This document shows, in pieces, positions 16,167 through 32,000 of a DNA stretch of 32,000 nt (position 1 is its first letter; each line of letters opens with the position of its first letter). The translations under genes were made by a program, and so were the position numbers. A model generated the notes under the pieces. It was not told where the DNA came from and did not search any database. It saw only the letters and a program-made list of their open reading frames with translations. This stretch comes from Nitrosospira multiformis ATCC 25196 (GTDB lineage Bacteria > Pseudomonadota > Gammaproteobacteria > Burkholderiales > Nitrosomonadaceae): contig NC_007614.1 in the NCBI RefSeq assembly GCF_000196355.1, positions 1,620,001 to 1,652,000 of the forward strand, written 5' to 3'.

Positions 16167-16979
16167 TCATTGGATTTTTTCTTGAGCTTTGGTATCGATT
16201 ACCCCTGGTATATCCTTCGTCGGCCGAGCAAACCGGCCTTTAAGGTCATCAACCCCAGACTGGGGTTTGGCAAGTTGCTTTAAATCTGCACGCTGCCTGC
16301 GCTTTTCCTCACTGTCTATTTTCATATTCTTGTCCCGCTTTTCGACCAATCCAGGTACTGCTTCTCCTTCATGATTAAAAGACCAGCCGAGCATCGGCTG
16401 ACCGAGGGGTAGCGCGTCGCCCAGCTTACCTTCGTAGCCCGTGTTCCAGACATGCCAGGTCTTGCCATAGCTGTTCATCTTCCCTTTCATCAACTCTTTT
16501 TCCGCAATGTCGGGAATGTTGGGGGCTACAAGCTGCCCCGAAAGAATTTCGCCGTTATGCGGATGCCAGTACTTTTTTTCCTCTTCGGGCAGCGTGTTGA
16601 AAAGCTTTGCCGAGATAATGAATTCGATGCCATTCAGGTTTGCATCCTCCGTGTTCCCATCGAACAGCGTACACTGCGCAAAATCCTCGTTTACCTGGTG
16701 ACAATAGTGATGAGCCTCCATCTGATCTTCCGGAGAATCCTTCATTGGATGGAAACCAACCAGATAAATGCCAAACGGTTTCAAGGGAGAACCGCTCTGC
16801 AACAGCTTGGCGCCTGCTTCCAGAATTTTCGTTTTGGGCGTTTTTGCCTCACCCCCGGGGTTGGCATGAGGTCCAGAGGACTCCTGTGCGAACGCCTCTT
16901 TTGCAGAGCCAAGCATTCCGCTGCTTGTCAGTAAAGCAAAACACGAAATAATTAAAAAATTTCCGCTCAATCTCTTCAT
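16167..16979 (-). CDS. DUF1264 / OBAP (oil-body-associated protein-like) family protein, secreted
   Basis: Signal peptide. Motifs HHYCHQVNEDFAQC, GIEFIISAKLFNTLPEEEKKYWHPHNGEILSG and TWHVW are characteristic of DUF1264. Confidence 0.8.
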   Translation of the reverse strand: MKRLSGNFLIISCFALLTSSGMLGSAKEAFAQESSGPHANPGGEAKTPKTKILEAGAKLLQSGSPLKPFGIYLVGFHPMKDSPEDQMEAHHYCHQVNEDFAQCTLFDGNTEDANLNGIEFIISAKLFNTLPEEEKKYWHPHNGEILSGQLVAPNIPDIAEKELMKGKMNSYGKTWHVWNTGYEGKLGDALPLGQPMLGWSFNHEGEAVPGLVEKRDKNMKIDSEEKRRQRADLKQLAKPQSGVDDLKGRFARPTKDIPGVIDTKAQEKIQ

Positions 16980-17325
16980 ACCGTCCCTTTCGAATATATT
17001 TATTCAGGAATATTGCATGCTTCCTCACACTCGTCCGTACGGTGGCACACAGGAATGAACCATAGCAATATGCTGAACGCTAATGAACTTCTTCAAGGGT
17101 TCCCAAGGAAATAGCGTAGAAATAGCAGTTATTCGCTTCCCATCATAATGCTTGCTGAATAGAGCGATTCAGCTGGTTTCATAGCTCGATCCGCGAATTC
17201 TTGCCCTACTTTCATGAATGAGCTGTTCTCAGTGCATTCCTTCATGTTCCAGCCTTGCATGCAGCCTGTATTTCCATAAACACTCCATGCCACCGCTGCC
17301 TGGGCCGCCTCTTCCCCCGTCTATC

Positions 17326-19533: not shown

Positions 19534-19640
19534 TTTTTGCTTTCCGCCGGAACATCGGGCAATTGAAGAAGTAGCGAGAGGCTAACCGAGCTTCTCCTGT
19601 TGATCAACAAATCCAAATCAAACGGGAGCCATTTTTATTT

Positions 19641-20069
19641 TTAATAGCCCGGCTGACCTCCCATGCCGCCGCCAGGAGGGGGAACCAGAGAGGGAAAAGA
19701 AGAACCTGACGATGAAGGCGAGGAAGCCTGCTCCACCTTCTGCTTTCCAGCCGCTGCTTCTTTATTAACTTTTTCTACCGCCTCATTTATACGGGCTTGC
19801 TCGGCAGTGGCCGACTTGTTGATGGCGGCGTTATCGGCATTGGCCTCCTTGATCATACAGTCATGGTAAGTTTGTATCTGTTTCTGCCACTCATTGATTT
19901 TTCCCACACTCCGGTTGAAGGCATCGACACTGCTTGAATCCACCACTGGCGTCTCTGGCATTGAGCCGCAACCGCTGGCAGACCAGCCCCCTTTTTCGAA
20001 GGTTCCCGCGTTTGCGGCAAACGCGGTAATGAGTACAACTGATACTGGAATATAAATGATTCGACTCAT
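19641..20069 (-). CDS. hypothetical secreted protein with Ser/Pro/Gly-rich C-terminus
   Basis: ATG at 20069 with GGGAGG 6 nt upstream. Signal peptide (MSRIIYIPVSVVLITAFAANA), helical middle and a SSPSSSGSSFPSLVPPPGGGMGGQPGY tail. Co-oriented with the TonB receptor, 107 nt upstream of it. Confidence 0.6.
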   Translation of the reverse strand: MSRIIYIPVSVVLITAFAANAGTFEKGGWSASGCGSMPETPVVDSSSVDAFNRSVGKINEWQKQIQTYHDCMIKEANADNAAINKSATAEQARINEAVEKVNKEAAAGKQKVEQASSPSSSGSSFPSLVPPPGGGMGGQPGY

Positions 20070-20248
20070 ATACGCCTCCCATGATTGATAGAATATGATC
20101 ATACCGGCTCAGCCATAACTCCTTCTTTCGCCCGCACGGCCGCAAAGGGTGCGGCAAGTCAGAGAAATATATAAAGCGAGCGGCTTATATTCCTGCTGAT
20201 ATCGCTGCGGTCAGCTGCCATTGAAGAACATACGCCAGCATCTTATAG

Positions 20249-20255
20249 GCTAATA
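20249..20255. repeat. 7-bp target-site duplication (GCTAATA) of the left IS481 copy, outer copy
   Basis: GCTAATA lies immediately before TGTAGTAG at 20256. The same heptamer lies immediately after ...CTACTACA at 21478. Confidence 0.85.
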
Positions 20256-21478
20256 TGTAGTAGTCGCGATCCCATCAGACAGTTTCCCGATTTGACTGGT
20301 GCAGTTGTCAGATCAGATTCAACTGTTCAGTAATGTGATTTTATCGTTCCACACCTCCTTTCCGTCAATTAATGTTTGCATGGGTGTTCGCCCGCAGCAC
20401 ATCTTGCCCTGATGAGTGCGGTCGTGATTGTAGTAGTGCAGCCAGTCATCCAGGTCAATTTGCAACTCCTCGATTGATCGGTATATCTTGCGCCGGAACG
20501 CGACCTGGTAGAACTCTTGCAGGATCGTCTTGTGAAAGCGCTCACAGATGCCGTTGGTCTGCGGATGATTGGCTTTGGTGCGAGTATGTTCAATATCATT
20601 GAGCGCCAGATAGAGCTGATAATCGTGAGTCTCTGGCTTGCCGCAATATTCAGTGCCTCGGTCGGTCAGAATTCGGATCAGGCCCATGTCCTGTTCTGCA
20701 AAGAAGGGTAGTACCCGATCGTTGAGCAAATCCGCGCCTGTAATCGGCGTTTTGGTCGTATAGAGCTTGGCTGTGGCCCACTTGGAGTAGGTGTCGACGA
20801 AGGTCTGCTGATAAATACGACCCACGCCCTTGATCGTGCCCACATAGAAGGTATCCTGACTGCCAAGGTAGCCTGAATGGGCGGTTTCCACCTCCCCATG
20901 GGCGACATCGTCGTCCTGCTTCTTCTCCAGGGCACTAACCTGCGCTTCGGTCAGCACTTCTCCAGTCTGCGCGATATGACATTCCAGTGCCGCCAACCGC
21001 TTCTTGAATGATTCCAGGTCCCTGCGCAGCCAGACAGAGCGAACGCCTGAAGGAGAAATGAAGATGCCGCGTTTGCGTAACTCGTTGGAAACGCGCACTT
21101 GCCCGAATGCAGGCTGCTCAAGGGCAAATGCAGCTACCGCCATCTCGACTGCTTCTTCAACTCTATTCTTGGGATTGGGCTTCCTTCGATTGGCATCAAT
21201 CAGGGCATCGATACCACCATTTTCCATCGCTGACTGATACCGATAGAAGGTATCCCGGGAAAAGCCCATCACCTTGCAGGCACGCGATACATTGCCAAGC
21301 TCGGCTGCCAGATTAAGCAGCCCTACCTTGTGCTTAATAACATTTTGTTGAACACTACTCATGGGGTTACTCCTTTGCGCTTTCAGCGCTCAATTTGATA
21401 AAGATTCGCACCTCTATCAAACCGGGTAACCCCGCTTTTCGCAAGGCCCTACTGTCAGATTAAATCTGAACTACTACA
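20256..21478 (-). mobile_element. IS481-family insertion sequence, copy 1 (1223 bp)
   Basis: Ends TGTAGTAGT...ACTACTACA. Imperfect 28-bp terminal inverted repeats match at 21/28 positions by eye. Single DDE transposase ORF. Flanked by a 7-bp direct repeat. Confidence 0.9.
20319..21362 (-). CDS. IS481-family DDE transposase (347 aa)
   Basis: N-terminal HTH (GNVSRACKVMGFSRDTFYRY); integrase-core catalytic region (DTFYVG..., TDRGTEY, HPQTNGICERFHKT). Identical to the protein at 26989..28032. Confidence 0.92.
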   Translation of the reverse strand: MSSVQQNVIKHKVGLLNLAAELGNVSRACKVMGFSRDTFYRYQSAMENGGIDALIDANRRKPNPKNRVEEAVEMAVAAFALEQPAFGQVRVSNELRKRGIFISPSGVRSVWLRRDLESFKKRLAALECHIAQTGEVLTEAQVSALEKKQDDDVAHGEVETAHSGYLGSQDTFYVGTIKGVGRIYQQTFVDTYSKWATAKLYTTKTPITGADLLNDRVLPFFAEQDMGLIRILTDRGTEYCGKPETHDYQLYLALNDIEHTRTKANHPQTNGICERFHKTILQEFYQVAFRRKIYRSIEELQIDLDDWLHYYNHDRTHQGKMCCGRTPMQTLIDGKEVWNDKITLLNS

Positions 21479-21485
21479 GCTAATA
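21479..21485. repeat. 7-bp target-site duplication (GCTAATA) of the left IS481 copy, inner copy
   Basis: See 20249..20255. Confidence 0.85.
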
Positions 21486-21544
21486 TAACCGGTTTGCAAA
21501 CGGCAAGAACAGCCATATCATCATCCGCCTATCCCCTCAGTTTT

Positions 21545-22762
21545 ATGCAATCCGCTGCAAACGCCTGGCGCGATGTGCTGGCAAAGTCCGTGCTATTCTT
21601 TTTTGGGATAGCGCTCTGGTACAAGGGGTTGAGCTTTTATGCCTATTACCTTTTGCCCCTCGCCTGGACGATAGATGGAGGACTGGCCCGCGCTGGAGAA
21701 ACGGTCAGAGAGCCTCTGGCAATCGGCATGCTTCTGTTATGCTTCGTCCTCGCCCTTGGCATACTCTGGAGCGATCATCCTGATCTTGGATTCAAGGTCG
21801 GGCGAAGATATTTTGCCTTTCTCGTTTTTATCCCCTATCTAGGCCTCTTGAATAAGGAACGTCTACCTTGGGCAATCAGTGGAGCGCTCCTGGGTTATTT
21901 TGGCGCACTGCTTATCGGTTTATATCACTGGCTGGTAATGGGCGTACAAGGTATTCCGACTTTGGGGATGCCTTACACCAGTTTCTCTTCGACACTAGGA
22001 ATTGGAGTAATACTGTCTCTCTATATTATAAAAACAAGCAGAAATAATGGAATCCGACTGTTTTTGTGGTTTCTCTCTGCCTTTCTATTGTTCATTCAGT
22101 TTAATCAAGACGCCAGGGGCGCACTTTTAGCAACGCTTTTCTCATCGTTGCTTCTGCTGTTTTTGCTGTATAAAACAAAAACCAAAACCCTTCTGATCGT
22201 GATGACACTGGTGATCACAGTAATCACGTTGTTCGCATCCAATAGTACGAGTTTTCAAGAAAGATTAATGCGAGCGAAGAATGATATTCAGTTATCCTGG
22301 ACAGGAAAATATACAACCAGCTTGGGTTATCGCCTGGCCATGTGGGATGTCGGTCTCCATGGAATAGCCGAGCATCCCTTTGTCGGTCACGGCACGGGAA
22401 CGGCAGCAAGGTATTTCGAGAAAACCGTTGAGACGTATAAAGGGGGTATTTACCGGGATTTAACAGAATTTCACGACACTTATCATTATCACAATGACTG
22501 GATTGAGATCGGAATGCAGTTAGGACTGCTCGGGATGGCGACTTATGCTTTCTTTTTGTGGAGTTGGTATCAAACGCTAAAGAGACATCAACTGATAGTT
22601 CTTGCGGCGGCTTTACTCTGTTTTATTTTTCTGTCCGGCTTAACAGACACTCTGGTTTTTTTTCGACAAACTTTTTACTTGCTTCTTGTAATCACCGCTA
22701 TTGGTATTACCTCTCACAAAGCATCGGAGCGGCTGGACTCTACAAAATATATTACTTCTTGA
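21545..22762 (+). CDS. O-antigen ligase / Wzy_C-domain family polytopic membrane protein
   Basis: About 10 or more TM helices. RGALLATLFSSLLLL loop motif. GHGTGT...HYHNDWIEIGMQLGLLGM is typical of the WaaL/Wzy_C family. The ORF track starts at TTG 21494; the first ATG is at 21545. AT-rich relative to its surroundings. Confidence 0.8.
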   Translation: MQSAANAWRDVLAKSVLFFFGIALWYKGLSFYAYYLLPLAWTIDGGLARAGETVREPLAIGMLLLCFVLALGILWSDHPDLGFKVGRRYFAFLVFIPYLGLLNKERLPWAISGALLGYFGALLIGLYHWLVMGVQGIPTLGMPYTSFSSTLGIGVILSLYIIKTSRNNGIRLFLWFLSAFLLFIQFNQDARGALLATLFSSLLLLFLLYKTKTKTLLIVMTLVITVITLFASNSTSFQERLMRAKNDIQLSWTGKYTTSLGYRLAMWDVGLHGIAEHPFVGHGTGTAARYFEKTVETYKGGIYRDLTEFHDTYHYHNDWIEIGMQLGLLGMATYAFFLWSWYQTLKRHQLIVLAAALLCFIFLSGLTDTLVFFRQTFYLLLVITAIGITSHKASERLDSTKYITS

Positions 22763-22819
22763 GTGATACTGGCAGTTATTGGAGTGGATGATTCAACATT
22801 AAACTGGGATAAGAAGGAA

Positions 22820-23779
22820 ATGACAAGATCGCCGCTACTGTCTGTCGCATTAGCCAGCTTTAACGGAGAACGCTATATTGCTGAGCAGTTGGAAAGTATA
22901 GCTCAGCAGTATAGACTGCCTGATGAACTCGTCATTTCAGATGATGCCTCCACTGATAGCACTACTGATATCGTATTGAGATTTGCGCGGCATGCTCCAT
23001 TCCCCGTGCAACTCCTCGAGCACTCTGAGCGTCTTGGTTCCACACGTAACTTTCAAACGGCTATATGCGCTTGTAATGGTGACATAATCTTTTTATGTGA
23101 TCAGGACGATGTTTGGTATCCAAAAAAGATCGAACTTATTGAAGCAGGTTTTATCGATAACCATAACGCAGGTGCCGTTTTCACCGATGCAGATGTAGTT
23201 GGCGAAAACTTAAACCCATCTGAAATACGTCTTTGGGAAGCTTTTAAATTCAATTCAAAAGAACAAGCACAAATTAATGGTTGCGATGCACTGGAAGTTT
23301 TGTTCAAGCATCCGGTAGTAACAGGTGCGACAATGGCGTTTCGTTCCATTTATCGAGATCTTATTCTACCTTTACCCGATATGTGGCATGACGCTTGGAT
23401 TGCTCTACTTATTGGAGCAACTTCATCCCTAGTGGCATTGCCCACACCATTGATTGCCTATCGGCAGCATAACTCTAACCAACTTGGGATTCCTCGTAGA
23501 GGTAGGAATCGCGGCAAGACTTGCGCAGAAATATATGGACCACAAGTTCTCCATTATGAATTGACTCGAGCGCGTCTCCTCGCGCACGAGAAGCACTTTC
23601 CAGTTTCTAAGCAGAAACTAGAAAAAATGGAGGAATTGCTTATTTTTTTGCGGAATCGCGCTGCTTTACCTCAAAGTCCTTGGCAGAGATTACCGATAGC
23701 TCTAAATGAACTTGCTGCCTTCCGTTATCATCGATATGCATTCGGAACTATCAGTTTTTGGAAAGACTTGCTACGCTAA
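22820..23779 (+). CDS. family 2 glycosyltransferase (GT2)
   Basis: ATG with AAGGAA SD. LSVALASFNGERYIAEQLESI...LVISDDASTDST (GT-A nucleotide-binding), DQDDVWYPKK (DxD region). No C-terminal TM segment. Confidence 0.85.
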   Translation: MTRSPLLSVALASFNGERYIAEQLESIAQQYRLPDELVISDDASTDSTTDIVLRFARHAPFPVQLLEHSERLGSTRNFQTAICACNGDIIFLCDQDDVWYPKKIELIEAGFIDNHNAGAVFTDADVVGENLNPSEIRLWEAFKFNSKEQAQINGCDALEVLFKHPVVTGATMAFRSIYRDLILPLPDMWHDAWIALLIGATSSLVALPTPLIAYRQHNSNQLGIPRRGRNRGKTCAEIYGPQVLHYELTRARLLAHEKHFPVSKQKLEKMEELLIFLRNRAALPQSPWQRLPIALNELAAFRYHRYAFGTISFWKDLLR

Positions 23780-23920
23780 CCATTGCACACCTCTACAAAT
23801 CAAGAATCAATAGGTGTTGCACTGACCGGTTGAATGCGCCGGTACAGTTTATTGGGGTGGGTTTTCCCCCGATTTCACGGACACATCTAAAAAGGCTGAT
23901 AATGAGTCAGGAGGTGTGTC

Positions 23921-24208
23921 ATGGCAACGCGAAGGAAATATGCAGCGGAGTTCAAGCAGGAAGCGGTACAACTAGTTCGGTCTGGCAATGTGCCGGCAAG
24001 CCGGATCGCGCGTGATCTGGGGATTGATCCCAATATGCTGAGCCGGTGGTGCCGGGAAATGGGCTCGGTCGGTAATAAAGCCTTTCAGGGTCAGGGCAGG
24101 CCCCGTGATGAGGAGATGGCTGCGCTCAAACGTGAGCTGATCCAAGTTAGGAAGGAGCGTGATTTTTTAAAAGAAGCGGCGGCGTTATTCGCGAAAGCGT
24201 CGAAATGA
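23921..24208 (+). CDS. IS3-family transposase OrfA (HTH)
   Basis: MATRRKYAAEFKQEAVQLV... is a typical IS3/IS911 OrfA. SD GGAGG upstream. Confidence 0.9.
   Translation: MATRRKYAAEFKQEAVQLVRSGNVPASRIARDLGIDPNMLSRWCREMGSVGNKAFQGQGRPRDEEMAALKRELIQVRKERDFLKEAAALFAKASK
24163..24169 (+). other. candidate programmed -1 ribosomal frameshift heptamer T TTT TTA (followed by AAAAG)
   Basis: The X XXY YYZ heptamer is in the orfA zero frame (GAT TTT TTA AAA G). The -1 frame is open from here into orfB, with no stop between 24163 and 24205. Confidence 0.55.
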
Positions 24209-25047
24209 GATATCGCATGATCGAACGCTGCCGCGATGCCTTCCCCATTCGCCTGATGTGTCGTTGTCTGCATGTATCAACCAGCGGCTACTATGATTGG
24301 CGAGATCGCCCCTTGAGTCAGAGAGCGCATGATGACCGGCGTTTGCTGGAGCGCATCAGGAAGATTCATGATGGCAGCGATGGGGTGATGGGCAGTCCTC
24401 GAGTCTGGAAGGAGTTGCGTTATGAAGGCGAGGCGTGTGGGTTGAACCGCATAGCACGGCTGATGCGCCAGCAGAGGTTGTATGGCATCCCGCAGCGTAA
24501 ACGCTGGCACAAGAAGGTCTGTGGCCTTCGACCGGAGAATGTGCACAATCACTTGCAGCGGGACTTTACAGCAAGTGAGCCCAACAGCCGGTGGGTGACG
24601 GACATAACCTATGTGCGCACTCAGGAAAGCTGGCTTTATCTGTGCGTGGTCGTGGACCTGTACTCGGGCATCGTGGTCGGCTGGTCAATGAGCCACTGCC
24701 AGGATCCGCAACTGGTGCTGCAGGCCGTACTCATGGCGCTTTGGCAGCGTGAGGCAAAAACTCCCGTCATCCTGCACTCAGATCGCGGCTGTCAGTTTAC
24801 CAGTGACGAGTATCAACGCTTCCTGCAAGGACACAATCTGATTTGCAGCATGAGCGCTGTCGGTAGTTGTGCCGACAACGCGCTAGCAGAGAGCTTCTTT
24901 GGCTTGCTCAAGCGGGAGCGAGTATATCGTCGCCAGTATCGAACCCGGGCTGAGGCGCGCACAGATATCTTCGACTATATCGAGCGATTCCATAATCCGC
25001 GAAAACGGCGACAGCTGGAAATGCGTCAGAAGCAGGATTTAGCTTAA
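24205..25047 (+). CDS. IS3-family transposase OrfB (DDE integrase core), probably expressed as an OrfAB fusion
   Basis: WVTDITYV, LHSDRGCQFTS and ADNALAESFFGLLKRE (DDE triad context). It lies in the -1 frame relative to orfA. Confidence 0.9.
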   Translation: MRYRMIERCRDAFPIRLMCRCLHVSTSGYYDWRDRPLSQRAHDDRRLLERIRKIHDGSDGVMGSPRVWKELRYEGEACGLNRIARLMRQQRLYGIPQRKRWHKKVCGLRPENVHNHLQRDFTASEPNSRWVTDITYVRTQESWLYLCVVVDLYSGIVVGWSMSHCQDPQLVLQAVLMALWQREAKTPVILHSDRGCQFTSDEYQRFLQGHNLICSMSAVGSCADNALAESFFGLLKRERVYRRQYRTRAEARTDIFDYIERFHNPRKRRQLEMRQKQDLA

Positions 25048-25227
25048 CCAAACCGTCCGGAGAAATGGGGTAAAACCCGGTAGGGTCAGCTAGTCCAGGT
25101 TTCCACTTTAGAACGGTACTGATTCCAGAGTAGGGTGATCCTGCCCTGACGAAGCCACAGCAATATCAAAACTGTGCTAAACGTCTAGGGATTTTGAGTG
25201 TTTAAGGCATATCCTCAGCCATAACAC

Positions 25228-26802
25228 TTAGGGGGATCCAGAATGCTCTGATAAGATTGTCTTCTTGACTGTATATATTTGATAGATCAGGTTTGGCGAA
25301 TCGTGCAGCATCTCGAAGTTATCCGAGATATATTTATGAATTAGGGGATGTGTATTGCAGAAACGTAACTCCTCCCGCCCATCAAGAGGGAAATCGAATA
25401 TCAGGATAAAACCTGGATTTGTCACCTTGATTCGTTCAATTTCTAGCTGTTGAAAGCTTTCACTTCGCGAGAACAAGGCGTATATCTCCCACATAGGAGA
25501 CTTTCTTTCGAACAGGGGATAAGCTCCCGGCCAGAAAGGAGTTGTGATAAAACTTTGACCATCGGCTGCATACTTAGCAACTAATTTCTTTAATAGACTG
25601 ATCTCACTCGCTGTGCGAGCATCAACAGTCACTTTGGTGTCTGAAATTACGATGCTCACACATTGTTTGCTAGGCCGACATTGCCAGGCGGGATGAAAAT
25701 GCACCATCACTAATAAACTTGACCCACATAACAAAAGTGCCAACGGCCATTTGATCCTCGCTGGTTTTGTGGACAACAGCACTAGGCAACCGACTAATAG
25801 AGGAAAAATGCTTTTAGCAAGATGACTTACATCAGCTCGGGAATAAGCATAATGCGCATAGGGCAATGCCAAGAATGCAGTTGCAACCAAGGCCGATGGA
25901 ACAGCCCGCTTGTGAAATTTCTGGCGAGTAACCCATATGATAGCAAGTACGCCAAAAACGACTATAGCGATGAAAAACAAGCCAACCAGCACTCCACGAA
26001 TCGTCTTACCAATAGATACGGAGTCAAATTCCAAACGCCAAGGCCAAGGAACGGGTAGAGTAAGATTAGTTGCTTTAATTTCAAGGAAAAAGAGCAAGCT
26101 TTCCCAGAAGGCAGGAGCAAAGCCTGGTACCAGCAATATCATGAGAAGTATTGGAATATAACCAATTGCTACTCCTACTGCCCATAGCATAGCCACCTTG
26201 ATAAATTCAAGCTTATCCGCTTGCCTGATGGTCAGCCATATCATAACCCCAAAACTACCTAAGACACCGTATACCCCATGGTTACGGCCAAAAACAGCTA
26301 CAAAACCTACACATAAACCGGTGAAAAAGTAACGTCTCCTTGTAGGGTTCTGCACAAGAAAGGCCAATACTCCAATCAGCAGAATAGATAAAGAGACATC
26401 AAATAATTTGTGGCGTGGATACATCCAGACCACCAATGTGATGGCTGAAAGAAGTAAATAAGGAAAATTTAGCGTTCTTGTATTTCGAGCAATTAACAGT
26501 AGAGCGACGAATAATCCCATCACTTGAAAAACCGCCAAGCTACCCCTTAAGGCCACTATGCCATTGTCTCCCCACAGCCACATGAGTGTAGCGGACCAGT
26601 AGTAACGGCCGGGGTCGTAAGCCATGAAATCGCGGATAGGCACCTCACCTAGCATCACACGTTGAACCCCATACCAAAGAAAACCTTCATCCCATAGTGA
26701 GAATCCTTTATGCCCCTGCCATAGAAAAAGTGCGAGCACAACAAGACTGGAGAAAACCAGTATTTGAAAAACTGGAAGCTTATTTTCTTGGGGTTGATGC
26801 AT
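25228..26802 (-). CDS. polytopic membrane protein, GT-C-like (ArnT/PMT-type) putative glycosyltransferase
   Basis: 524 aa with about 12 or more hydrophobic helices in the first ~390 aa. An acidic first-loop motif (SLWDEGFLWYG...DFMAYDPGRYYW) resembles GT-C first-loop catalytic motifs. Soluble C-terminal ~130 aa. AT-rich. Family assignment is inference. Confidence 0.55.
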   Translation of the reverse strand: MHQPQENKLPVFQILVFSSLVVLALFLWQGHKGFSLWDEGFLWYGVQRVMLGEVPIRDFMAYDPGRYYWSATLMWLWGDNGIVALRGSLAVFQVMGLFVALLLIARNTRTLNFPYLLLSAITLVVWMYPRHKLFDVSLSILLIGVLAFLVQNPTRRRYFFTGLCVGFVAVFGRNHGVYGVLGSFGVMIWLTIRQADKLEFIKVAMLWAVGVAIGYIPILLMILLVPGFAPAFWESLLFFLEIKATNLTLPVPWPWRLEFDSVSIGKTIRGVLVGLFFIAIVVFGVLAIIWVTRQKFHKRAVPSALVATAFLALPYAHYAYSRADVSHLAKSIFPLLVGCLVLLSTKPARIKWPLALLLCGSSLLVMVHFHPAWQCRPSKQCVSIVISDTKVTVDARTASEISLLKKLVAKYAADGQSFITTPFWPGAYPLFERKSPMWEIYALFSRSESFQQLEIERIKVTNPGFILIFDFPLDGREELRFCNTHPLIHKYISDNFEMLHDSPNLIYQIYTVKKTILSEHSGSP

Positions 26803-26865
26803 TTGGTATTATTGTAACGATAATGTTCAGACGAGAGTATGCAGATTGTAATTCCAACCTATAGA

Positions 26866-26872
26866 CTTTATC
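26866..26872. repeat. target-site duplication of the right IS481 copy, inner copy (CTTTATC)
   Basis: CTTTATC lies immediately before TGTAGTAG at 26873, and ATTTATC immediately after ...CTACTACA at 28095 (6 of 7 identical). Confidence 0.7.
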
Positions 26873-28095
26873 TGTAGTAGTTCAGATTTAATCTGACAGT
26901 AGGGCCTTGCGAAAAGCGGGGTTACCCGGTTTGATAGAGGTGCGAATCTTTATCAAATTGAGCGCTGAAAGCGCAAAGGAGTAACCCCATGAGTAGTGTT
27001 CAACAAAATGTTATTAAGCACAAGGTAGGGCTGCTTAATCTGGCAGCCGAGCTTGGCAATGTATCGCGTGCCTGCAAGGTGATGGGCTTTTCCCGGGATA
27101 CCTTCTATCGGTATCAGTCAGCGATGGAAAATGGTGGTATCGATGCCCTGATTGATGCCAATCGAAGGAAGCCCAATCCCAAGAATAGAGTTGAAGAAGC
27201 AGTCGAGATGGCGGTAGCTGCATTTGCCCTTGAGCAGCCTGCATTCGGGCAAGTGCGCGTTTCCAACGAGTTACGCAAACGCGGCATCTTCATTTCTCCT
27301 TCAGGCGTTCGCTCTGTCTGGCTGCGCAGGGACCTGGAATCATTCAAGAAGCGGTTGGCGGCACTGGAATGTCATATCGCGCAGACTGGAGAAGTGCTGA
27401 CCGAAGCGCAGGTTAGTGCCCTGGAGAAGAAGCAGGACGACGATGTCGCCCATGGGGAGGTGGAAACCGCCCATTCAGGCTACCTTGGCAGTCAGGATAC
27501 CTTCTATGTGGGCACGATCAAGGGCGTGGGTCGTATTTATCAGCAGACCTTCGTCGACACCTACTCCAAGTGGGCCACAGCCAAGCTCTATACGACCAAA
27601 ACGCCGATTACAGGCGCGGATTTGCTCAACGATCGGGTACTACCCTTCTTTGCAGAACAGGACATGGGCCTGATCCGAATTCTGACCGACCGAGGCACTG
27701 AATATTGCGGCAAGCCAGAGACTCACGATTATCAGCTCTATCTGGCGCTCAATGATATTGAACATACTCGCACCAAAGCCAATCATCCGCAGACCAACGG
27801 CATCTGTGAGCGCTTTCACAAGACGATCCTGCAAGAGTTCTACCAGGTCGCGTTCCGGCGCAAGATATACCGATCAATCGAGGAGTTGCAAATTGACCTG
27901 GATGACTGGCTGCACTACTACAATCACGACCGCACTCATCAGGGCAAGATGTGCTGCGGGCGAACACCCATGCAAACATTAATTGACGGAAAGGAGGTGT
28001 GGAACGATAAAATCACATTACTGAACAGTTGAATCTGATCTGACAACTGCACCAGTCAAATCGGGAAACTGTCTGATGGGATCGCGACTACTACA
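26873..28095 (+). mobile_element. IS481-family insertion sequence, copy 2 (1223 bp), inverted relative to copy 1
   Basis: Both termini and both untranslated ends are base-for-base identical to the reverse complement of 20256..21478 where checked by eye. All six-frame ORFs of 60 aa or more are identical between the copies. Confidence 0.9.
26989..28032 (+). CDS. IS481-family DDE transposase (347 aa)
   Basis: 100% identical in amino-acid sequence to 20319..21362. Confidence 0.92.
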   Translation: MSSVQQNVIKHKVGLLNLAAELGNVSRACKVMGFSRDTFYRYQSAMENGGIDALIDANRRKPNPKNRVEEAVEMAVAAFALEQPAFGQVRVSNELRKRGIFISPSGVRSVWLRRDLESFKKRLAALECHIAQTGEVLTEAQVSALEKKQDDDVAHGEVETAHSGYLGSQDTFYVGTIKGVGRIYQQTFVDTYSKWATAKLYTTKTPITGADLLNDRVLPFFAEQDMGLIRILTDRGTEYCGKPETHDYQLYLALNDIEHTRTKANHPQTNGICERFHKTILQEFYQVAFRRKIYRSIEELQIDLDDWLHYYNHDRTHQGKMCCGRTPMQTLIDGKEVWNDKITLLNS

Positions 28096-28102
28096 ATTTA
28101 TC
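28096..28102. repeat. target-site duplication of the right IS481 copy, outer copy (ATTTATC)
   Basis: See 26866..26872. Confidence 0.7.
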
Positions 28103-28109: not shown

Positions 28110-28841
28110 TTATTGAGTTACTGGAGGAAGTATTGACGAAGGAAAAAACCTTCTTGCAAATTCCCTCAGATCGATTTCTGTCTCGCCGCCGTCCATGAAT
28201 CGGAATCTCCACACATTCTGTTGCTCGTCTGAATCCAGTTGCAAAGGATCATCTGCCAGCGCCAATCCGCCTTTTTCAAGGATTTCTCTGGCTTTCCTCG
28301 CGTTCCCTGCTAGCAGGGAGTTCAGAGCATCGGGAATTCCCCTTTTCTTCGCTGCATAGGCTTTGTTCATCCAAGGGGCCATTTCTTCCAGAAGGCCATA
28401 TTTCTTGTAAATGTTCGCCATGCGCGTCAGTTCATTCGCATCATCAAGCAGGTTGCCAGCCAACATGCGCTTGGCGATCATTTCATCCGAGGAAATTTGT
28501 GTTGCGGGTTTGCTCAGGCTGGAAAGGCCTCCAGTATCGGCTTCTGCGACAGCAGGTGTTTTCATCAACCCGGTGCTCAGGCCGGGCGTCGGGTAACCGG
28601 GGATAGATGGCTTCTGCTTATCCTGCTGCCATGGAATCGCTATCTCATCGTTGGCGGCACGGAGCCGCTCGCGTTTTTCCCTGTTGAAGTCTGCCTTGTC
28701 GATCCTCGCCCGATGCAACTCCGCCTCGCGCTCATCCGCCTTTTTCAACCGGTTGGCATCCCGCTGCCGGAGCTTCATATCCTGCCCCGTGCGTATACCC
28801 TGTGCAAGGCCGCCAGCAAACGCGCCCAGACTTTCAAGCAT
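28110..28841 (-). CDS. hypothetical phage-like protein (243 aa), last gene of the overlapping operon
   Basis: The start overlaps the upstream gene's end by 8 nt. Charged coiled-coil N-terminal part (KLRQRDANRLKKADEREAELHRARIDKADFNREKRERL). No family recognised. Confidence 0.6.
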   Translation of the reverse strand: MLESLGAFAGGLAQGIRTGQDMKLRQRDANRLKKADEREAELHRARIDKADFNREKRERLRAANDEIAIPWQQDKQKPSIPGYPTPGLSTGLMKTPAVAEADTGGLSSLSKPATQISSDEMIAKRMLAGNLLDDANELTRMANIYKKYGLLEEMAPWMNKAYAAKKRGIPDALNSLLAGNARKAREILEKGGLALADDPLQLDSDEQQNVWRFRFMDGGETEIDLREFARRFFPSSILPPVTQ

Positions 28842-29958
28842 GGTCCCCCTCCCTGTTGTGTTTATTCACTGTCGCCTTGCGCTTCATCAACCCTGAGGCG
28901 ACATTGAGCCGGTGAATGAAATCCTCCCCTACAAGTTCCACCGCTTTTCTGTTGAGTACCGCTTCGCCATTGGATAACCGGATAGGCTGCACGCCTTCAA
29001 TTGAAGCCGGGATGGAATCGCTGGTGCCGGTACCGGGACCTCGTACTATGCCACTGTTCCCATAGCCATCGCGCTTCAATGTGGATAAACCATAGGCATT
29101 GTAGTTCCTGATGACCCCGCCCGTCCGCAGGCCTGGGGTTCTCATCAGGTAAGCTCCGCCCAGGGTGCCGACCAGATTGCCTAACCCGCTGAGTCCTCCC
29201 GCTTTATTCTGCTGCTGTTGCTGCCATGCATTCAGTTGGCCCTGATATTGGTTCAGCATCAGGTTGCCGGAGGAGCTATTCGCACCAAGGGCGCCGTCAT
29301 ACCAGTGTTGCGCCGCATTCATGCCGGCGGTATGCAGCCCTGCTTTCGTTGCCAGGTTGTCAGTGGCGGCGTTACCTGCATTGAGCGCTGCCGCATCGGC
29401 AGCTATTCCCATGGTGGGCATATTACGCCCAAATTGGGCCACGCCCTGCCGCATGGCCATGCCCTGCAATTCTGTCTCGCGTCGGGCCTTATTCATTGCT
29501 CCCGCCGTGTCTTTGGCAAGCCCAAGGCTGATCTCGTGGGTCAGGCCTTGAAACTTGCCTGAATTAGGATTTACTCCCATGCGTCCCATCGTCCGTTGGC
29601 TCGAATCCAGGGCGCTCTCATAACTTTTTGCGATATCCGCTCCTGCCTCGGCCGCCATCTGCTCTTTACGCTCAAGCGAATCGAACTCGTTGGCTTCCCT
29701 CACCATGCGCTCTTCTATCGGCGCAAACAGGTTGCGGTATGCCTGCCATTGCGATTCGGCCCTCGCCGCATTGGCTTCGCCTGAGGCAATCTGCTGATCT
29801 ACAATCTTCTGGATCAGGGGGTCTTGTACCCTGGCTCTGTCCTTCTCCCATTCGAGCTGTTGCTTTGCCACATCCAGTTGCTGCTGGGCGATATCGGCCT
29901 GTTGTTTTGCCGCCTGCCCGATGAGCGGATCCGGTCTTGGTGGCTTCGAACTACACAT
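28834..29958 (-). CDS. phage virion-associated-like protein (coiled-coil N-terminus, Gly/Gln/Asn-rich middle, conserved C-terminal GPGTGTSDSIPA...LSNGEAVL motif)
   Basis: ATG at 29958 with GGAG 7 nt upstream; the track's TTG at 29964 is an alternative. It overlaps the GNAT stop by 8 nt. The composition and C-terminal motif resemble phage internal/tail-associated proteins from my recollection, not verified. Confidence 0.6.
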   Translation of the reverse strand: MCSSKPPRPDPLIGQAAKQQADIAQQQLDVAKQQLEWEKDRARVQDPLIQKIVDQQIASGEANAARAESQWQAYRNLFAPIEERMVREANEFDSLERKEQMAAEAGADIAKSYESALDSSQRTMGRMGVNPNSGKFQGLTHEISLGLAKDTAGAMNKARRETELQGMAMRQGVAQFGRNMPTMGIAADAAALNAGNAATDNLATKAGLHTAGMNAAQHWYDGALGANSSSGNLMLNQYQGQLNAWQQQQQNKAGGLSGLGNLVGTLGGAYLMRTPGLRTGGVIRNYNAYGLSTLKRDGYGNSGIVRGPGTGTSDSIPASIEGVQPIRLSNGEAVLNRKAVELVGEDFIHRLNVASGLMKRKATVNKHNREGDHA

Positions 29959-30565
29959 TTTCAATCTCCAGTATTTTGGTCAATCCATTTTCTACGTGCC
30001 TGTAGCCGAGCAATCTGAAAAACCGTGCGGCCTTATTAACTGTCTTTACGGTAATGTTGATTTCCCGGACGCCTAGCAATTTCATGGCATTCTCGACATA
30101 CCTTACAAAACGCTTGGCAGTAGTGCCGCGTCGCGCCTCGGGCAAAAGATACAGCGTGTCTTCCGTGGCAATAAGTGTCTGCGTGTGAGCGCTCTTATCC
30201 AGATACATGGCGCAATTGCCCAGCAACTTTCCTTCGCTTCTTACGGTAAAAAGAAGGTAGCGGCCCGCCTGCTCATACCGGATAAAAGTCTCGTAATCCG
30301 GCTGGAACGGTAGCCGATGTCTGTGTCCTTCGGTTTCATTCCAGTGGGTGCGATGCAAATGCTTTATTTCTTCTGTAATGTCCTCAATACGCTCTACAGC
30401 GAATACTATGCGGCCGTTATATCGAGGCTTGATTTGGGCAATATCTCTCGATTGCGCAAGCGTTTCCATGCGGTAGGCGGCAACGCAGATATCCGCGGCC
30501 AGCTCAGATGTCAAGGTCAAGCCCATATTTCCCTTGAGCAGCGAAATCAGTTCAATATTCATCAT
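29951..30565 (-). CDS. GNAT-family N-acetyltransferase (204 aa)
   Basis: ATG at 30565 forms an ATGA overlap with the upstream stop. GNAT core: LYLLPEARRGTTAKRFVRYVENAMKLLGVREINITVKTVNKAARFFRLLGYRHV (acetyl-CoA-binding motif A region and following helix/strand). Confidence 0.75.
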   Translation of the reverse strand: MMNIELISLLKGNMGLTLTSELAADICVAAYRMETLAQSRDIAQIKPRYNGRIVFAVERIEDITEEIKHLHRTHWNETEGHRHRLPFQPDYETFIRYEQAGRYLLFTVRSEGKLLGNCAMYLDKSAHTQTLIATEDTLYLLPEARRGTTAKRFVRYVENAMKLLGVREINITVKTVNKAARFFRLLGYRHVENGLTKILEIENV

Positions 30566-31998
30566 CCATCCATACGTGAAATAAGCTGTTCGAGAGAATC
30601 GCGAACAGAATTTATGTACGCATACAATGCCTCGCATTCAGCCTGGGTGGGGGGAGCGGAGAATGTAAGCGCACGAAAGGCGGGAAGCGCTATTCGGTTT
30701 CCGCGTCGTCCGGTCAGTATCTCAAGCATGGTTTTGAGCCATGGAGGTGTTCCGACCGGAATGCCAGGCTTCTTGATATAGGTTGCTTCAGCAGGTTGGC
30801 TGAAAAGCGCGGATTCAATCACAACCCCGTCACTTATCGCTTCTGCGCTTGCTTTATTGATTTGGATGCAAAAAGTGGCGGAAAGAATGTGTATCTGGGT
30901 AATTACGCCCGTTCCGCCAGCATTGGCTTGCATGGAGGGCGTCCCGACAAGCGTGCCACTGCCGATGGATATGGGGAGGGCATCGCCTGCGTTAGATTGC
31001 GCCAAGCCTGCTTCAATCAGGATATGAGTTTGCGTGATTGCGCCGCCTGGCAATATCTTCCCCTGGGCCAATGCGCCCATGCTGAGCATGTGCGCCTGAC
31101 TTACTTTCCCCGTGCTCAAGGTTCTGGCCGGCGCAACCAGGGCGCCCGCCAGGGCAATACCTCTGGTAACGCCGGCAGCGCTACCCAGGTTGGATTGAGC
31201 GAGGGAAGCGCCCGCAAGAATTTGATCCTGCTCGATCTTGCCCGTACTGGCGCCACCTGCCTGTGTTAATCCCGCAACAGCGAGCGTGTGATGTTGAGCA
31301 ATTTCTCCGGTGCTGCCCCTATTTGCCTGTATTGCAGCTACACCGCTTAATCCGGGTCCTGTATCAGCAGGCCACAGCTTTCTTGCAGATGCCTTGAATA
31401 GCTGCCATGGATTTTCATGAAAAGCCCGTGACTCAGCCGCTCCCCAGACTGAATCGGCAAAGCCGGCTATCAGTATCGTGCCGTCAAATTCCCATAGATT
31501 CCCACCGACGTACCGTCCAAGGTTGAAATTCTTGTTCCCCGCTCCCCAGGCTACCGGGGAACTTGTCCAGGTCAACCCGGCCTCTTTCCCATCGAGAAAA
31601 ACTTTGCACGTCGCTGCCGTACCCCCCGATACGAAAACGATACTCCGGCTTTTTGTGTTGAACCATGAAGAAAGGGTGCCGGAACTGGCGCCATTGGAAC
31701 CGATAGCTACTCTTAAGTCTGGATAAACCTGGTATGCGAAAGCATTGGGAGAAGAAGCCCCGAAGGGGCAGTGACCATAAGTATCGGGCCCACCCACAGT
31801 GGGGCACCACATAAAGAAGGTGCCGACATTGCCGGTCAGTTCCGGATAGCCGGTATAGGCGTAATAGTCATCGGCCCCATCAAACGAAAACACCTTGCCA
31901 TTTTGTGCTGGAACAATTGACGCATTGCCGCCCGCTGCCCAGCTTCGCCCGGTAACCAGATCGACCGGCCCCGCGGCAGGATTCCATAATATCCGCAT
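30562..31998 (-). CDS. LamG/ConA-like lectin-domain protein with repeat-rich C-terminal half (putative phage host-recognition / fibre protein)
   Basis: N-terminal ~200 aa match the Laminin_G_3 pattern (VFSFDGADDYYAYTGYPEL...GTFFMWCPT...VFLDGKE...NFNLGRY...FDGTILIAGFADSVW). Eight 22-aa repeats follow. The ATG at 31998 is 2 nt from the window edge, so the true start may lie outside the window. Confidence 0.7.
   Translation of the reverse strand: MRILWNPAAGPVDLVTGRSWAAGGNASIVPAQNGKVFSFDGADDYYAYTGYPELTGNVGTFFMWCPTVGGPDTYGHCPFGASSPNAFAYQVYPDLRVAIGSNGASSGTLSSWFNTKSRSIVFVSGGTAATCKVFLDGKEAGLTWTSSPVAWGAGNKNFNLGRYVGGNLWEFDGTILIAGFADSVWGAAESRAFHENPWQLFKASARKLWPADTGPGLSGVAAIQANRGSTGEIAQHHTLAVAGLTQAGGASTGKIEQDQILAGASLAQSNLGSAAGVTRGIALAGALVAPARTLSTGKVSQAHMLSMGALAQGKILPGGAITQTHILIEAGLAQSNAGDALPISIGSGTLVGTPSMQANAGGTGVITQIHILSATFCIQINKASAEAISDGVVIESALFSQPAEATYIKKPGIPVGTPPWLKTMLEILTGRRGNRIALPAFRALTFSAPPTQAECEALYAYINSVRDSLEQLISRMDG
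30820..31350 (-). repeat. eight tandem ~22-aa (66-nt) degenerate repeats within CDS 30562..31998
   Basis: Residues 217-393 parse as LSGVAAIQANRGSTGEIAQHHT / LAVAGLTQAGGASTGKIEQDQI / LAGASLAQSNLGSAAGVTRGIA / LAGALVAPARTLSTGKVSQAHM / LSMGALAQGKILPGGAITQTHI / LIEAGLAQSNAGDALPISIGSGT / LVGTPSMQANAGGTGVITQIHI / LSATFCIQINKASAEAISDGVV. Confidence 0.8.
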
Positions 31999-32000
31999 TC

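What the first reader, a model, noticed from the sequence alone, without database searches (positions are those of the whole stretch)
28110..32000. Four-gene translationally coupled operon of unassignable phage-like proteins
All junctions on the minus strand overlap:
- LamG-repeat protein to GNAT: ATGA overlap at 30562-30565
- GNAT to the 374-aa protein: 8-nt overlap at 29951-29958
- the 374-aa protein to the 243-aa protein: 8-nt overlap at 28834-28841

Such packing implies fixed stoichiometry or co-assembly.

The parts are a lectin-fold protein with a repetitive fibre-like region, an acetyltransferase, a protein with a Q/A-rich coiled coil plus a G/N/Q-rich disordered centre and a conserved C-terminal GPGTGTSDSIPA...RLSNGEAVL block, and a highly charged coiled-coil protein. 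They do not match a textbook module I can name.

It may be the host-recognition/ejection end of a podovirus-like prophage, a tailocin remnant, or a domesticated adhesion/effector system. This is the part of the window with the most unknown function per kb.
Basis: partly seen in the sequence, partly recalled or inferred. Interest (0 to 1): 0.72.

Follow-up and report, generated by a model that had tools for sequence, protein, structure and literature searches.

The report
Tail-end genes of a chromosome-fixed podovirus remnant
These four overlapping genes are the last part of the virus-particle gene set of a short-tailed phage relative that sits at one fixed chromosomal site in Nitrosospira soil nitrifiers; most parts are recognisable, but the parent element has lost its integration and replication genes and still evolves like a useful host gene set.

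Summary
Four minus-strand genes overlap by 4, 8 and 8 nt exactly as stated, and the same junctions recur in most relatives.

"Unassignable" is overstated:
- The 374-aa protein belongs to the Bcep22 gp70 / JC1 gp64 virion-protein family (phrog_8003, E 9e-94).
- The GNAT occupies the same upstream slot in Burkholderia, Ralstonia, Ochrobactrum and Microcystis phages.
- The first protein has a confidently predicted LamG/ConA lectin domain, eight 22-aa repeats and a conserved C-terminus.
- The 243-aa protein matches the N-terminal half of the virion protein that follows the gp70 homologue in a complete Nitrosovibrio prophage.

The block is longer than four genes. Two small genes lie beyond the window, and a membrane-protein gene followed it before an IS481-family insertion.

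In relatives it is the distal end of a ~24-kb late-gene cluster running from the terminase genes through portal, capsid, adaptor, fibre and lysozyme to the nozzle. No integrase, replication genes or tRNA flank that cluster. It lies at the same locus across Nitrosospira and Nitrosovibrio. Its synonymous divergence equals that of the flanking host genes, and dN/dS is 0.06-0.4.

This is a new member of a known phage module. Whether the parent element is a gene-transfer-agent-like domesticated phage is open.

The parts
30562..32000 (-). p506: fibre-like protein, 478 of its 506 aa inside the window. It has an N-terminal LamG/ConA-like lectin domain, eight 22-aa repeats and a conserved helical C-terminus.
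   Evidence: ORF. Full length of 506 aa in L003 and P0196. AF2 model; Foldseek matches to carbohydrate-binding jelly rolls.
31399..31998 (-). LamG/ConA-like lectin domain of p506 (residues 1-200 of the window fragment).
   Evidence: pLDDT 86-98. Foldseek matches: AbnA CBM domain 5ho2 (E 1e-7), the trans-sialidase lectin domain, CBM40 and pentraxins, and phage 'Concanavalin A-like lectin' proteins. Some homologues carry PF13385.
30802..31329 (-). Eight degenerate 22-aa repeats (Q-x-N-x-G-S-x-G-x-I-x-Q-x-H-x-L...), probably a beta-rich fibre shaft.
   Evidence: A period of 22 is the clear optimum. There is no repeat at the DNA level. The monomer model has pLDDT <50 here.
30565..30768 (-). Conserved C-terminal module of p506, the best conserved part of the protein and possibly its virion-attachment end.
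   Evidence: Nearly invariant P411, G412, P414, P418, E426, G430, R431, R432, P439, F446, S447, T451, E454, E456 and R475. It is the only part shared with the 515-aa protein of the complete Nv4 prophage (65% identity over 18% of the protein).
29951..30565 (-). GNAT-family acetyltransferase (204 aa, or 203 aa from the second ATG).
   Evidence: Pfam Acetyltransf_1 at 28.8 bits against a cut-off of 20.7. phrog_1249, E 2.5e-13. Profile match to PDB 3JVN acetyltransferase, E 6.5e-6. dN/dS 0.07-0.18.
28834..29958 (-). p374: member of the Bcep22 gp70 / JC1 gp64 virion-protein family. It is mostly helical, with a Gly-rich hydrophobic segment and a tape-measure-like C-terminal block.
   Evidence: phrog_8003, E 9.4e-94. 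tblastn matches in 71 phage records. JC1 gp64 was detected in virions by MS. AF2 model is helical, pLDDT 51. dN/dS 0.06-0.12.
29143..29199 (-). Gly-zipper-like hydrophobic segment GGLSGLGNLVGTLGGAYLM, which ends the conserved family core.
   Evidence: In alignment A4 the Bcep22 and GP4 homologues terminate exactly here.
28903..29040 (-). C-terminal block GPGTGTSDSIPA...RLSNGEAVL...GEDFIHRLN, a module also found inside tape measure proteins.
   Evidence: Invariant columns. tblastn matches in 159 phage records, mostly actinophage tape measure proteins (E 5e-4 to 1e-2 in the rows listed). The match is internal in a Rhodococcus phage TMP and C-terminal in a Pelagibacter podophage protein encoded between portal and capsid.
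28110..28841 (-). p243: short form of the virion protein that follows the gp70 homologue in complete phages.
   Evidence: 29% identity, E 3e-18, to residues 1-265 of the 435-aa protein after the p374 homologue in the Nv4 prophage. Only 75 representative relatives among 1.84 billion proteins, many of them 370-660 aa and aligned over their N-terminal ~220-290 residues. Weak phrog_9667 match, the Bcep22 gp74 family. dN/dS 0.13-0.20.
26873..28095 (+). IS481-family insertion sequence that separates p243 from the next gene. It is a simple insertion with a 7-bp target duplication at 26866-26872 and 28096-28102.
   Evidence: Identical inverted copy at 20256-21479. Transposase domains. Ends read. The reconstructed empty site is collinear with L007, L008 and L029.
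25228..26802 (-). 524-aa polytopic membrane protein gene. Before the IS insertion it lay ~80 nt downstream of p243 on the same strand. It is the first gene of a strain-variable polysaccharide cassette.
   Evidence: ORF. It directly follows p243 in L007, L008 and L019. No terminator-like site was found between the two genes.

Best explanation
The four genes are the distal end of the late (particle) gene string of a podovirus-derived element in Nitrosospira multiformis. The virion module is of the GP4 / Bcep22 / phi24B type.

In close relatives the order is: TerS, TerL, portal, variable fibre genes, scaffold, capsid, SU10-type adaptor, fibre, holin/lysozyme, nozzle, p127, p144, p506, GNAT, p374, p243.

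Proposed roles:
- p506 is a modular fibre. A conserved C-terminal module is inferred to hold it on the particle. A swappable shaft and LamG lectin head are inferred to bind a surface glycan.
- p374 is a virion-borne protein, as shown for its homologues. It is inferred to be an internal or ejected protein that leaves through the nozzle and inserts into the envelope through its Gly-rich hydrophobic segment and tape-measure-like C-terminus.
- p243 is the N-terminal domain of the next virion protein of that set (inferred).
- The GNAT is a non-virion enzyme kept translationally coupled to p374. It is inferred to modify either p374 or a sugar/envelope target.

The overlaps give coupled translation of one late transcript.

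In relatives the parent cluster lacks integrase, replication and immunity genes. It sits at one conserved chromosomal site and co-diverges with the host. It is therefore best read as a fixed element that selection has maintained, not as a recently acquired prophage.
For: Anatomy and conserved overlaps.

p374:
- Family assignment.
- Virion association of the homologue JC1 gp64, and absence of the JC1 acetyltransferase from the virion list.
- GP4 gp71 and gp73 are absent from solved structures, including the GP4 tail entry 8JOV, although the GP4 nozzle and a tail fibre are present there. This fits an internal or disordered location.
- Tape-measure-like block.

GNAT in the same slot: Bcep22, GP4, POI1126, Mwe-JY25, JC1 and the Nv4 prophage.

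p243 is homologous to the N-terminus of the downstream virion protein.

p506 lectin fold and modularity.

Upstream virion genes in relatives.

Element level:
- No integrase, replication genes or tRNA at the left end in three genomes.
- Conserved right flank of orf153 and a TonB-dependent receptor.
- dS of the four genes against three strains is 0.13-0.44, compared with 0.23-0.35 for flanking TonB and DUF1264.
- dN/dS is 0.06-0.43.
Against: - No direct evidence of expression or of particles.
- The roles of p506, p243 and the GNAT rest on position, fold and weak homology.
- The p374 model is low-confidence and has no structural match.
- Some p374 relatives carry a Peptidase_S74 chaperone domain typical of trimeric fibres, so a needle or fibre role cannot be excluded.
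- The Nitrosospira GNAT and the Bcep22-type GNAT are not detectably homologous to each other, so a shared function is an assumption.
- Sporadic lesions exist: the nozzle is split in L006, p506 is split in L012 and L015, and p243 is truncated in L007. In this strain IS elements sit on both sides of the six-gene block.
- The upstream part of the element in this very genome lies outside the window and was not seen.
- A closely related complete prophage exists in Nitrosovibrio Nv4, with TerL 81% identical. Recombination with active phages could therefore mimic conservation.
Confidence: 0.6

Rival explanations
1. This is the ordinary late-operon end of an active temperate podovirus prophage. The early genes simply lie outside what was examined.
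For: A complete prophage with the same virion module is present in Nitrosovibrio Nv4. It carries a DNA methyltransferase, NinB, TerS/TerL, and the run GNAT, p374 homologue, 435-aa protein, 2278-aa LPD38 protein. Prophage induction has been reported for N. multiformis 25196 (Choi et al. 2010, as cited in PMC9502458).
Against: - In three genomes the genes left of TerS are Rz-like and small ORFs, followed by opposite-strand FAD-binding/GMC-oxidoreductase-type genes. No integrase and no tRNA is present.
- The right end abuts polysaccharide genes and a conserved TonB-dependent receptor.
- Most IMG/VR predictions are only 20-27 kb, against ~60 kb for the related phages.
- The locus is the same across species, and dS equals that of the flanking genes.
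Confidence: 0.12
2. This is a decaying prophage remnant with no present function. The ORFs persist by chance.
For: IS insertions lie on both sides of the block in this strain. Scattered frameshifts or splits occur in relatives. The giant ejection protein found in complete relatives is missing.
Against: - dN/dS is 0.06-0.2 for GNAT, p374 and p243, and 0.14-0.43 for p506, at divergences where dS is saturated.
- Gene order, start-stop overlaps and Shine-Dalgarno sequences are conserved in ~20 genomes.
- The IS insertions are intergenic.
Confidence: 0.18
3. This is a tailocin or a domesticated adhesion/effector system that uses only tail parts.
For: There is a lectin-domain fibre, and the gene set is lysis plus structural genes only.
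Against: Terminase, portal, scaffold and major capsid genes are conserved in the same string. The tail is a podovirus nozzle, not a contractile or flexible tube.
Confidence: 0.03

Closest known systems
Bcep22-like podophages (Lessievirus: Bcep22 gp67-gp75; JC1 gp61-gp69)
   Same: The gene order is nozzle ('head closure/internal virion protein'), small protein(s), GNAT, gp70/gp64 homologue overlapping the GNAT stop by 8 nt, then further virion proteins. p374 shares ~35% identity over its first ~270 residues. The JC1 homologue was detected in virions by MS.
   Different: - The Nitrosospira block has a LamG fibre gene and two small genes between the nozzle and the GNAT.
- Its GNAT is of a different lineage (phrog_1249 against phrog_4470).
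- p374 has an extra tape-measure-like C-terminus.
- The gp74 counterpart is a short form.
- There is no PAPS reductase and no DarB-like giant protein.
Ralstonia phage GP4 (Gervaisevirus) and the Stx phage phi24B virion module
   Same: The nozzle is homologous to PDB 8JOV chain A (E 1e-80), and a fibre N-terminus matches 8JOV chain 1. The adaptor is of the SU10 type. The general layout is nozzle, then distal or central fibre proteins, then packaged ejection protein(s).
   Different: GP4 gp71 lacks the C-terminal block. phi24B has no detectable p374 homologue in the phage search, and it uses a 2811-aa LPD protein as its proposed ejection protein.
Tape measure proteins of siphophages (actinophage TMPs)
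   Same: They share the short GPGTGTSDSIPA..LSxGE block. Both are long, helical, Gly/Ala/Gln-rich proteins expected to travel through a tail channel.
   Different: The similarity is one ~50-residue motif at E 5e-4 to 1e-2 in the rows listed. p374 belongs to a podovirus and has none of the TMP family domains.
Gene transfer agents (e.g. RcGTA) and other fixed, late-gene-only prophage derivatives
   Same: In relatives the parent cluster has only packaging, head, tail and lysis genes. It has no integrase or replication genes, occupies one conserved locus across a genus, and shows host-like synonymous divergence and purifying selection.
   Different: The morphotype is a podovirus. Neither packaging of host DNA nor host control has been shown. 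A near-identical virion module also occurs in a complete prophage.

Membership tests
Bcep22 gp70-like virion structural protein (phrog_8003) | Sequence match to the family profile over most of its length | tested here: met
   E 9.4e-94, residues 1-362 against profile positions 14-372 of 389. BLASTP gives 35% identity, E 1e-42 to 5e-43, to Bcep22 gp70 and GP4 gp71.
Bcep22 gp70-like virion structural protein (phrog_8003) | Position downstream of the nozzle and directly after an acetyltransferase gene in a podovirus late operon | tested here: met
   The 8-nt overlap is also seen in Bcep22, JC1 and the Nv4 prophage.
Bcep22 gp70-like virion structural protein (phrog_8003) | Physical presence in particles | not testable with these tools
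   Shown only for the homologue JC1 gp64, by MS.
GNAT acetyltransferase superfamily | Match to a GNAT domain model above the curated threshold | tested here: met
   PF00583 at 28.8 bits against a cut-off of 20.7. Profile match to PDB 3JVN, E 6.5e-6.
GNAT acetyltransferase superfamily | Same orthologous group as the Bcep22/GP4 'acyl-CoA N-acyltransferase' (phrog_4470) | tested here: not met
   BLASTP E 0.81. No phmmer link. Only GP4 gp72 touches phrog_1249, weakly at E 0.0015.
GNAT acetyltransferase superfamily | Acetyl transfer and identity of the substrate | not testable with these tools
   NCBIfam gives only sub-threshold generic matches.
LamG / Concanavalin A-like lectin domain | Jelly-roll beta-sandwich fold | tested here: met
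   AF2 pLDDT >93 over residues 1-200. Foldseek probability 1.00 to CBM, lectin and pentraxin domains, with E down to 1e-7 in PDB and 1.6e-10 in BFVD.
LamG / Concanavalin A-like lectin domain | Match to Pfam Laminin_G_3 (PF13385) | tested here: not met
   No Pfam hit for this protein. PF13385 is recorded for 15 homologues that share the C-terminal two thirds.
Gene transfer agent | Cluster of head, tail, packaging and lysis genes without integrase, replication or immunity genes | tested here: met
   Met in relatives L066, L071, L072, L070 and L078. Not visible in this window, which holds only the distal end.
Gene transfer agent | Vertical inheritance at a conserved locus across a clade, under purifying selection | tested here: met
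   Same right flank in 8 genome loci plus L070, and same left flank in 3. dS equals that of the flanking genes, and dN/dS is well below 1. No formal tree reconciliation was done.
Gene transfer agent | Particles that package random host DNA and transfer it | not testable with these tools
   No experimental data were found in the searchable literature.
Tailocin | Tail genes only, with no capsid or terminase | tested here: not met
   TerS, TerL, portal, scaffold and capsid genes are present in the same string.
Composite transposon (two IS481-family copies bracketing 21480-26872) | A single target duplication at the outer ends only | tested here: not met
   Each copy has its own 7-bp duplication: GCTAATA/GCTAATA and CTTTATC/ATTTATC. 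Empty sites are found in L070 and in L007/L008.

The most novel reading that the evidence does not exclude
The ~24-kb late-gene-only cluster, of which these four genes are the distal end, is a functional podovirus-type gene transfer agent, or a similarly domesticated particle, of the ammonia-oxidising genera Nitrosospira and Nitrosovibrio. In that reading the LamG fibre targets the strain-variable surface polysaccharide encoded next door. The coupled GNAT-p374 pair would be a self-contained modification-and-penetration device, for example acetylation or acylation of the conserved N-terminal region of the ejected protein.
Probability: 0.25. Interest if true: 0.75.

Novelty: new member of a known kind. 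Interest (0 to 1): 0.4.

Why it matters
Taken as four genes, this is an unremarkable but poorly annotated phage module. The analysis gives provisional names to four 'hypothetical proteins' that recur in Nitrosospira genomes.

Two points are worth more:
- A GNAT is kept immediately upstream of the gp70-family virion protein in phages of Burkholderia, Ralstonia, Ochrobactrum, Microcystis and Nitrosospira. Two GNAT lineages with no detectable similarity to each other fill that slot, although published work treats the gene as a 'moron'. This argues for a role in particle function, and it can be tested in the tractable Bcep22/JC1 systems.
- In relatives the parent cluster looks like a fixed, selected, late-gene-only phage derivative in a genus that carries out soil nitrification. 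If it makes particles, it would be a route of gene exchange or cell lysis in organisms that control fertiliser nitrogen loss and N2O emission.

Tried and rejected
- Pfam, PHROGs and NCBIfam gave nothing for p506, p127 or p144, and only chance-level hits for p243.
- PDB sequence searches with p374, p506, p243, GP4 gp71 and GP4 gp73 found nothing useful.
- The AF2 model of p374 was low-confidence (pLDDT 51). Its Foldseek matches were generic coiled coils with E above 0.25, and I discarded them.
- p506 found no match in the phage collection by tblastn.
- No DNA-level tandem repeat underlies the 22-aa protein repeats.
- I considered a composite-transposon origin for the segment between the two IS481-family copies. 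I rejected it because each copy has its own target duplication and its own empty site.
- I considered N-terminal lipidation of p374 through the conserved Cys2. It is not supported: there is no lipobox or hydrophobic leader, and some homologues carry a ~25-residue charged extension before that Cys.
- I considered strict co-variation of p506 with the adjacent polysaccharide cassette. It is weakened because L070 has an identical p506 but a different cassette.
- The Bcep22 founding paper could not be retrieved.
- No sigma-70-like promoter was found upstream of p127 on the coding strand.

Full report
**Observation.** The minus strand of 28110-32000 carries four ORFs.
- p506 is cut by the window end. 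It is 506 aa in L003, a contig 100% identical to the window over 4000 nt.
- The GNAT is 204 aa, p374 is 374 aa and p243 is 243 aa.
- The overlaps are as reported: ATGA at 30562-30565, 8 nt at 29951-29958 and 8 nt at 28834-28841. GGAG and GGGAGGGGG Shine-Dalgarno sequences precede the last two starts.
- The geometry is conserved in related Nitrosospira/Nitrosovibrio loci. The GNAT/p374 overlap is 8 nt in 14 of 19 loci scored, and the p374/p243 overlap is 8 nt in 15 of 18. The packing is therefore a maintained feature, not chance.

**What the proteins are.**

*p374.*
- It matches phrog_8003 'virion structural protein' at E 9.4e-94.
- By tblastn it matches 71 phage records. These include Bcep22 gp70, BcepIL02, DC1, JC1 and the Ralstonia GP4 group, plus Ochrobactrum, Achromobacter and Microcystis phages.
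- In JC1 the homologue gp64 was found in CsCl-purified virions by mass spectrometry. The adjacent acetyltransferase gp63 was not, and the authors called it a moron (PMC9144972).
- The family core is residues 1-270. It ends in a Gly-rich hydrophobic segment where the Bcep22 and GP4 proteins stop.
- C-terminal additions differ by lineage. Microcystis, Achromobacter and Ochrobactrum phages have a Peptidase_S74 chaperone domain. Nitrosospira has the GPGTGTSDSIPA...LSNGEAVL block.
- That block also occurs inside actinophage tape measure proteins, and at the C-terminus of a Pelagibacter podophage protein encoded between portal and capsid.
- AF2 predicts long helices at low confidence, and Foldseek finds nothing significant.
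- GP4 gp71 is absent from solved structures, including the GP4 tail entry 8JOV.

*GNAT.*
- It passes the Pfam Acetyltransf_1 threshold and matches only generic GNATs in the PDB.
- A GNAT lies in the same slot in Bcep22, GP4, JC1, POI1126, Mwe-JY25 and a Nitrosovibrio prophage.
- The Nitrosospira type (phrog_1249) and the Bcep22 type (phrog_4470) are not detectably related to each other.

*p506.*
- Its N-terminal domain is confidently modelled (pLDDT >93) as a ConA/LamG jelly roll. It matches carbohydrate-binding modules, the lectin domain of trans-sialidases, pentraxins and many phage 'ConA-like lectin' proteins.
- The domain is followed by eight 22-aa repeats.
- The conserved C-terminal ~70-90 residues are the only part shared with the equivalent 515-aa protein of a complete prophage.
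- Its head and shaft are the fastest-evolving part of the block, at 33-89% identity where the neighbouring genes are 65-96%.

*p243.*
- It has only 75 representative relatives among 1.84 billion proteins. Many of them are 370-660 aa and align over their N-terminal ~220-290 residues.
- It is 29% identical (E 3e-18) to the N-terminal 265 residues of the 435-aa protein that follows the p374 homologue in the Nv4 prophage.
- It weakly touches the Bcep22 gp74 family.

**Context.** The window comes from Nitrosospira multiformis.
- Twenty-one genome loci and 25 IMG/VR contigs carry a relative of p374. Most also carry the syntenic block p127, p144, p506, GNAT, p374, p243.
- Upstream in relatives lie TerS, TerL, a P22-type portal, variable fibre-like gene pairs, scaffold, capsid, an SU10-type adaptor, a fibre, holin/lysozyme and a 678-aa protein. 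That protein is homologous to the hexameric nozzle of GP4 (8JOV chain A, E 1e-80).
- The phi24B cryo-EM preprint shows the same virion architecture. There, the genes after the nozzle encode a central needle, tip proteins and a packaged giant ejection protein.
- The four genes are therefore the distal part of a podoviral particle-gene string.
- A strong terminator-like hairpin lies between the nozzle gene and p127. In this strain an IS3-type element has inserted just upstream of it.

**Downstream.** The IS481-family copy at 26873-28095 is a simple insertion with a 7-bp target duplication. The reconstructed empty site is collinear with L007 and L008. Before that insertion, p243 was followed ~80 nt later by the 524-aa membrane-protein gene. 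That gene is the first of a low-GC Wzy/glycosyltransferase cassette, which differs between strains whose flanks are 99.7-99.8% identical.

**Nature of the parent element.**
- In three genomes the region left of TerS holds Rz-like and small ORFs. Next come opposite-strand genes: a 190-aa protein, a Bor-like lipoprotein, an FAD-binding protein and a GMC oxidoreductase. There is no integrase, replication gene or tRNA.
- The right flank is the polysaccharide cassette, orf153 and a TonB-dependent receptor. These are the same genes as at 14947-20102 of the window. This flank recurs across N. multiformis, N. briensis and Nitrosovibrio.
- Most IMG/VR predictions are 20-27 kb.
- Against three N. multiformis-group strains, dS of the four genes is 0.13-0.44. 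For the flanking TonB and DUF1264 genes it is 0.23-0.35.
- dN/dS is 0.06-0.12 for p374, 0.07-0.18 for the GNAT, 0.13-0.20 for p243 and 0.14-0.43 for p506.
- A complete prophage with the same virion module exists elsewhere in the Nitrosovibrio Nv4 chromosome. It also carries a methyltransferase, NinB, and a 2278-aa LPD38 protein after the p374/435-aa pair.
- The simplest reading is a lambdoid-type podophage that lost its early region and became fixed before these lineages diverged. Selection has kept its particle genes.
- Lesions are sporadic: the nozzle is split in L006, p506 is split in L012 and L015, p243 is truncated in L007, and IS insertions are present here.

**Mechanism, with status of each step.**
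- *Shown:* operon packing and its conservation; family membership of p374 and the GNAT; the lectin fold of p506; position after the nozzle; purifying selection.
- *Shown only for homologues:* presence of the p374 family in virions.
- *Inferred:* p506 is a glycan-binding fibre anchored by its C-terminus. p374 and p243 are internal or ejected proteins that exit through the nozzle and engage the envelope. The GNAT acts in the producing cell on p374 or on a sugar/envelope substrate.
- *Alternative for p374:* a trimeric plug or needle, suggested by the S74 chaperone domain in relatives.

**Comparison and novelty.** The block is a new member of the Bcep22/GP4-type distal virion module. It has lineage-specific features: a LamG fibre, a different GNAT lineage, a tape-measure-like tail on p374, a short gp74-like protein and no giant polyvalent protein. 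I found no description of this Nitrosospira element in the searchable literature. The GTA-like reading is consistent with every genomic criterion I could test. It lacks any evidence for particles or DNA transfer.

**Verdict.** Interest is moderate. The four genes are ordinary phage parts. The conserved GNAT-gp70 pairing and the fixed late-gene-only element are the parts worth following up.

Noticed in passing
window 20256-21479 and 26873-28095: Two identical IS481-family copies lie in inverted orientation, each encoding a 347-aa transposase. Each has its own 7-bp target duplication: GCTAATA at 20249-20255 and 21480-21486, and CTTTATC/ATTTATC at 26866-26872 and 28096-28102. They are independent insertions, not a composite transposon. 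Empty sites are seen in L070 and in L007/L008.
   Followed up: yes
window 21364-21560 (+) and 26797-26987 (-): The Rfam family psRNA2 (RF02349) matches at 128-129 bits at the inner end of both IS copies. The well-aligned part of the model is the IS leader plus the terminal inverted repeat. At least here, this 'sRNA' family corresponds to an IS end.
   Followed up: partly
window 21494-26802: A low-GC (0.42-0.45) polysaccharide cassette lies between the phage-like block and the conserved orf153/TonB-receptor flank. It holds a Wzy-like protein (21494-22762), a GT2 (22763-23779), an IS3-type transposase orfB (24205-25047) and a 524-aa membrane protein with no family match. L070, whose flanks are 99.7-99.8% identical, carries a different cassette (GT4 plus another Wzy). 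L078 carries a larger one.
   Followed up: partly
L003 1-397; L070 9087-9110 (just beyond window position 32000): A strong terminator-like hairpin (GAGCCGCCCctgttcGGGCGGTTT followed by a T run) sits between the nozzle gene and p127. In the window's strain an IS3-type element has inserted ~27 nt after the nozzle stop codon, so the six-gene block is bracketed by IS elements.
   Followed up: partly
L052 2955-6265; L066 17188-19897; L071 13270-15390; L072 13271-17257: Between portal and scaffold the elements carry strain-variable gene pairs with a shared N-terminal motif (MIRFL..T..G..YGKG). They have Beta_helix or polysaccharide-lyase domains. In one strain a 292-aa/245-aa pair is tandemly duplicated. 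These are possibly extra fibres or depolymerases.
   Followed up: no
L068 + L063 (Nitrosovibrio sp. Nv4, contig OCMZ01000002.1, ~1.05-1.09 Mb): This is a complete lambdoid-type prophage with the same virion module. It adds an N6/N4 methyltransferase, NinB, an endonuclease VII gene inside the tail region, and a 2278-aa LPD38 polyvalent protein after the p374/435-aa pair. The same genome also has the late-gene-only element at the conserved locus (L019).
   Followed up: partly
L006 4818-6853; L012 8077-9396; L015 7801-9395; L007 ~11750: Some relatives carry sporadic lesions: the nozzle is split into 237 + 431 aa, p506 is split into two or three ORFs, and p243 has a premature stop. I did not check whether these are real mutations or assembly errors.
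   Followed up: no
window 30317-30355 (GNAT residues 71-83): The N-terminal extension of the Nitrosospira-type GNAT has an invariant His-rich motif, H71-x2-H74-W75-x2-T78-E79-x-H81-R82-H83. This is not part of the canonical GNAT core. It may be a metal- or substrate-binding site.
   Followed up: no
L066 3503-4027 and 8763-9453; L071 6672-7100 and 8363-9427: The left edge of the element keeps a lambdoid lysis-region signature: Rz-like spanin ORFs just before TerS and a Bor-like lipoprotein gene on the opposite strand. The true ancestral prophage boundary may therefore lie a few kb left of TerS.
   Followed up: partly
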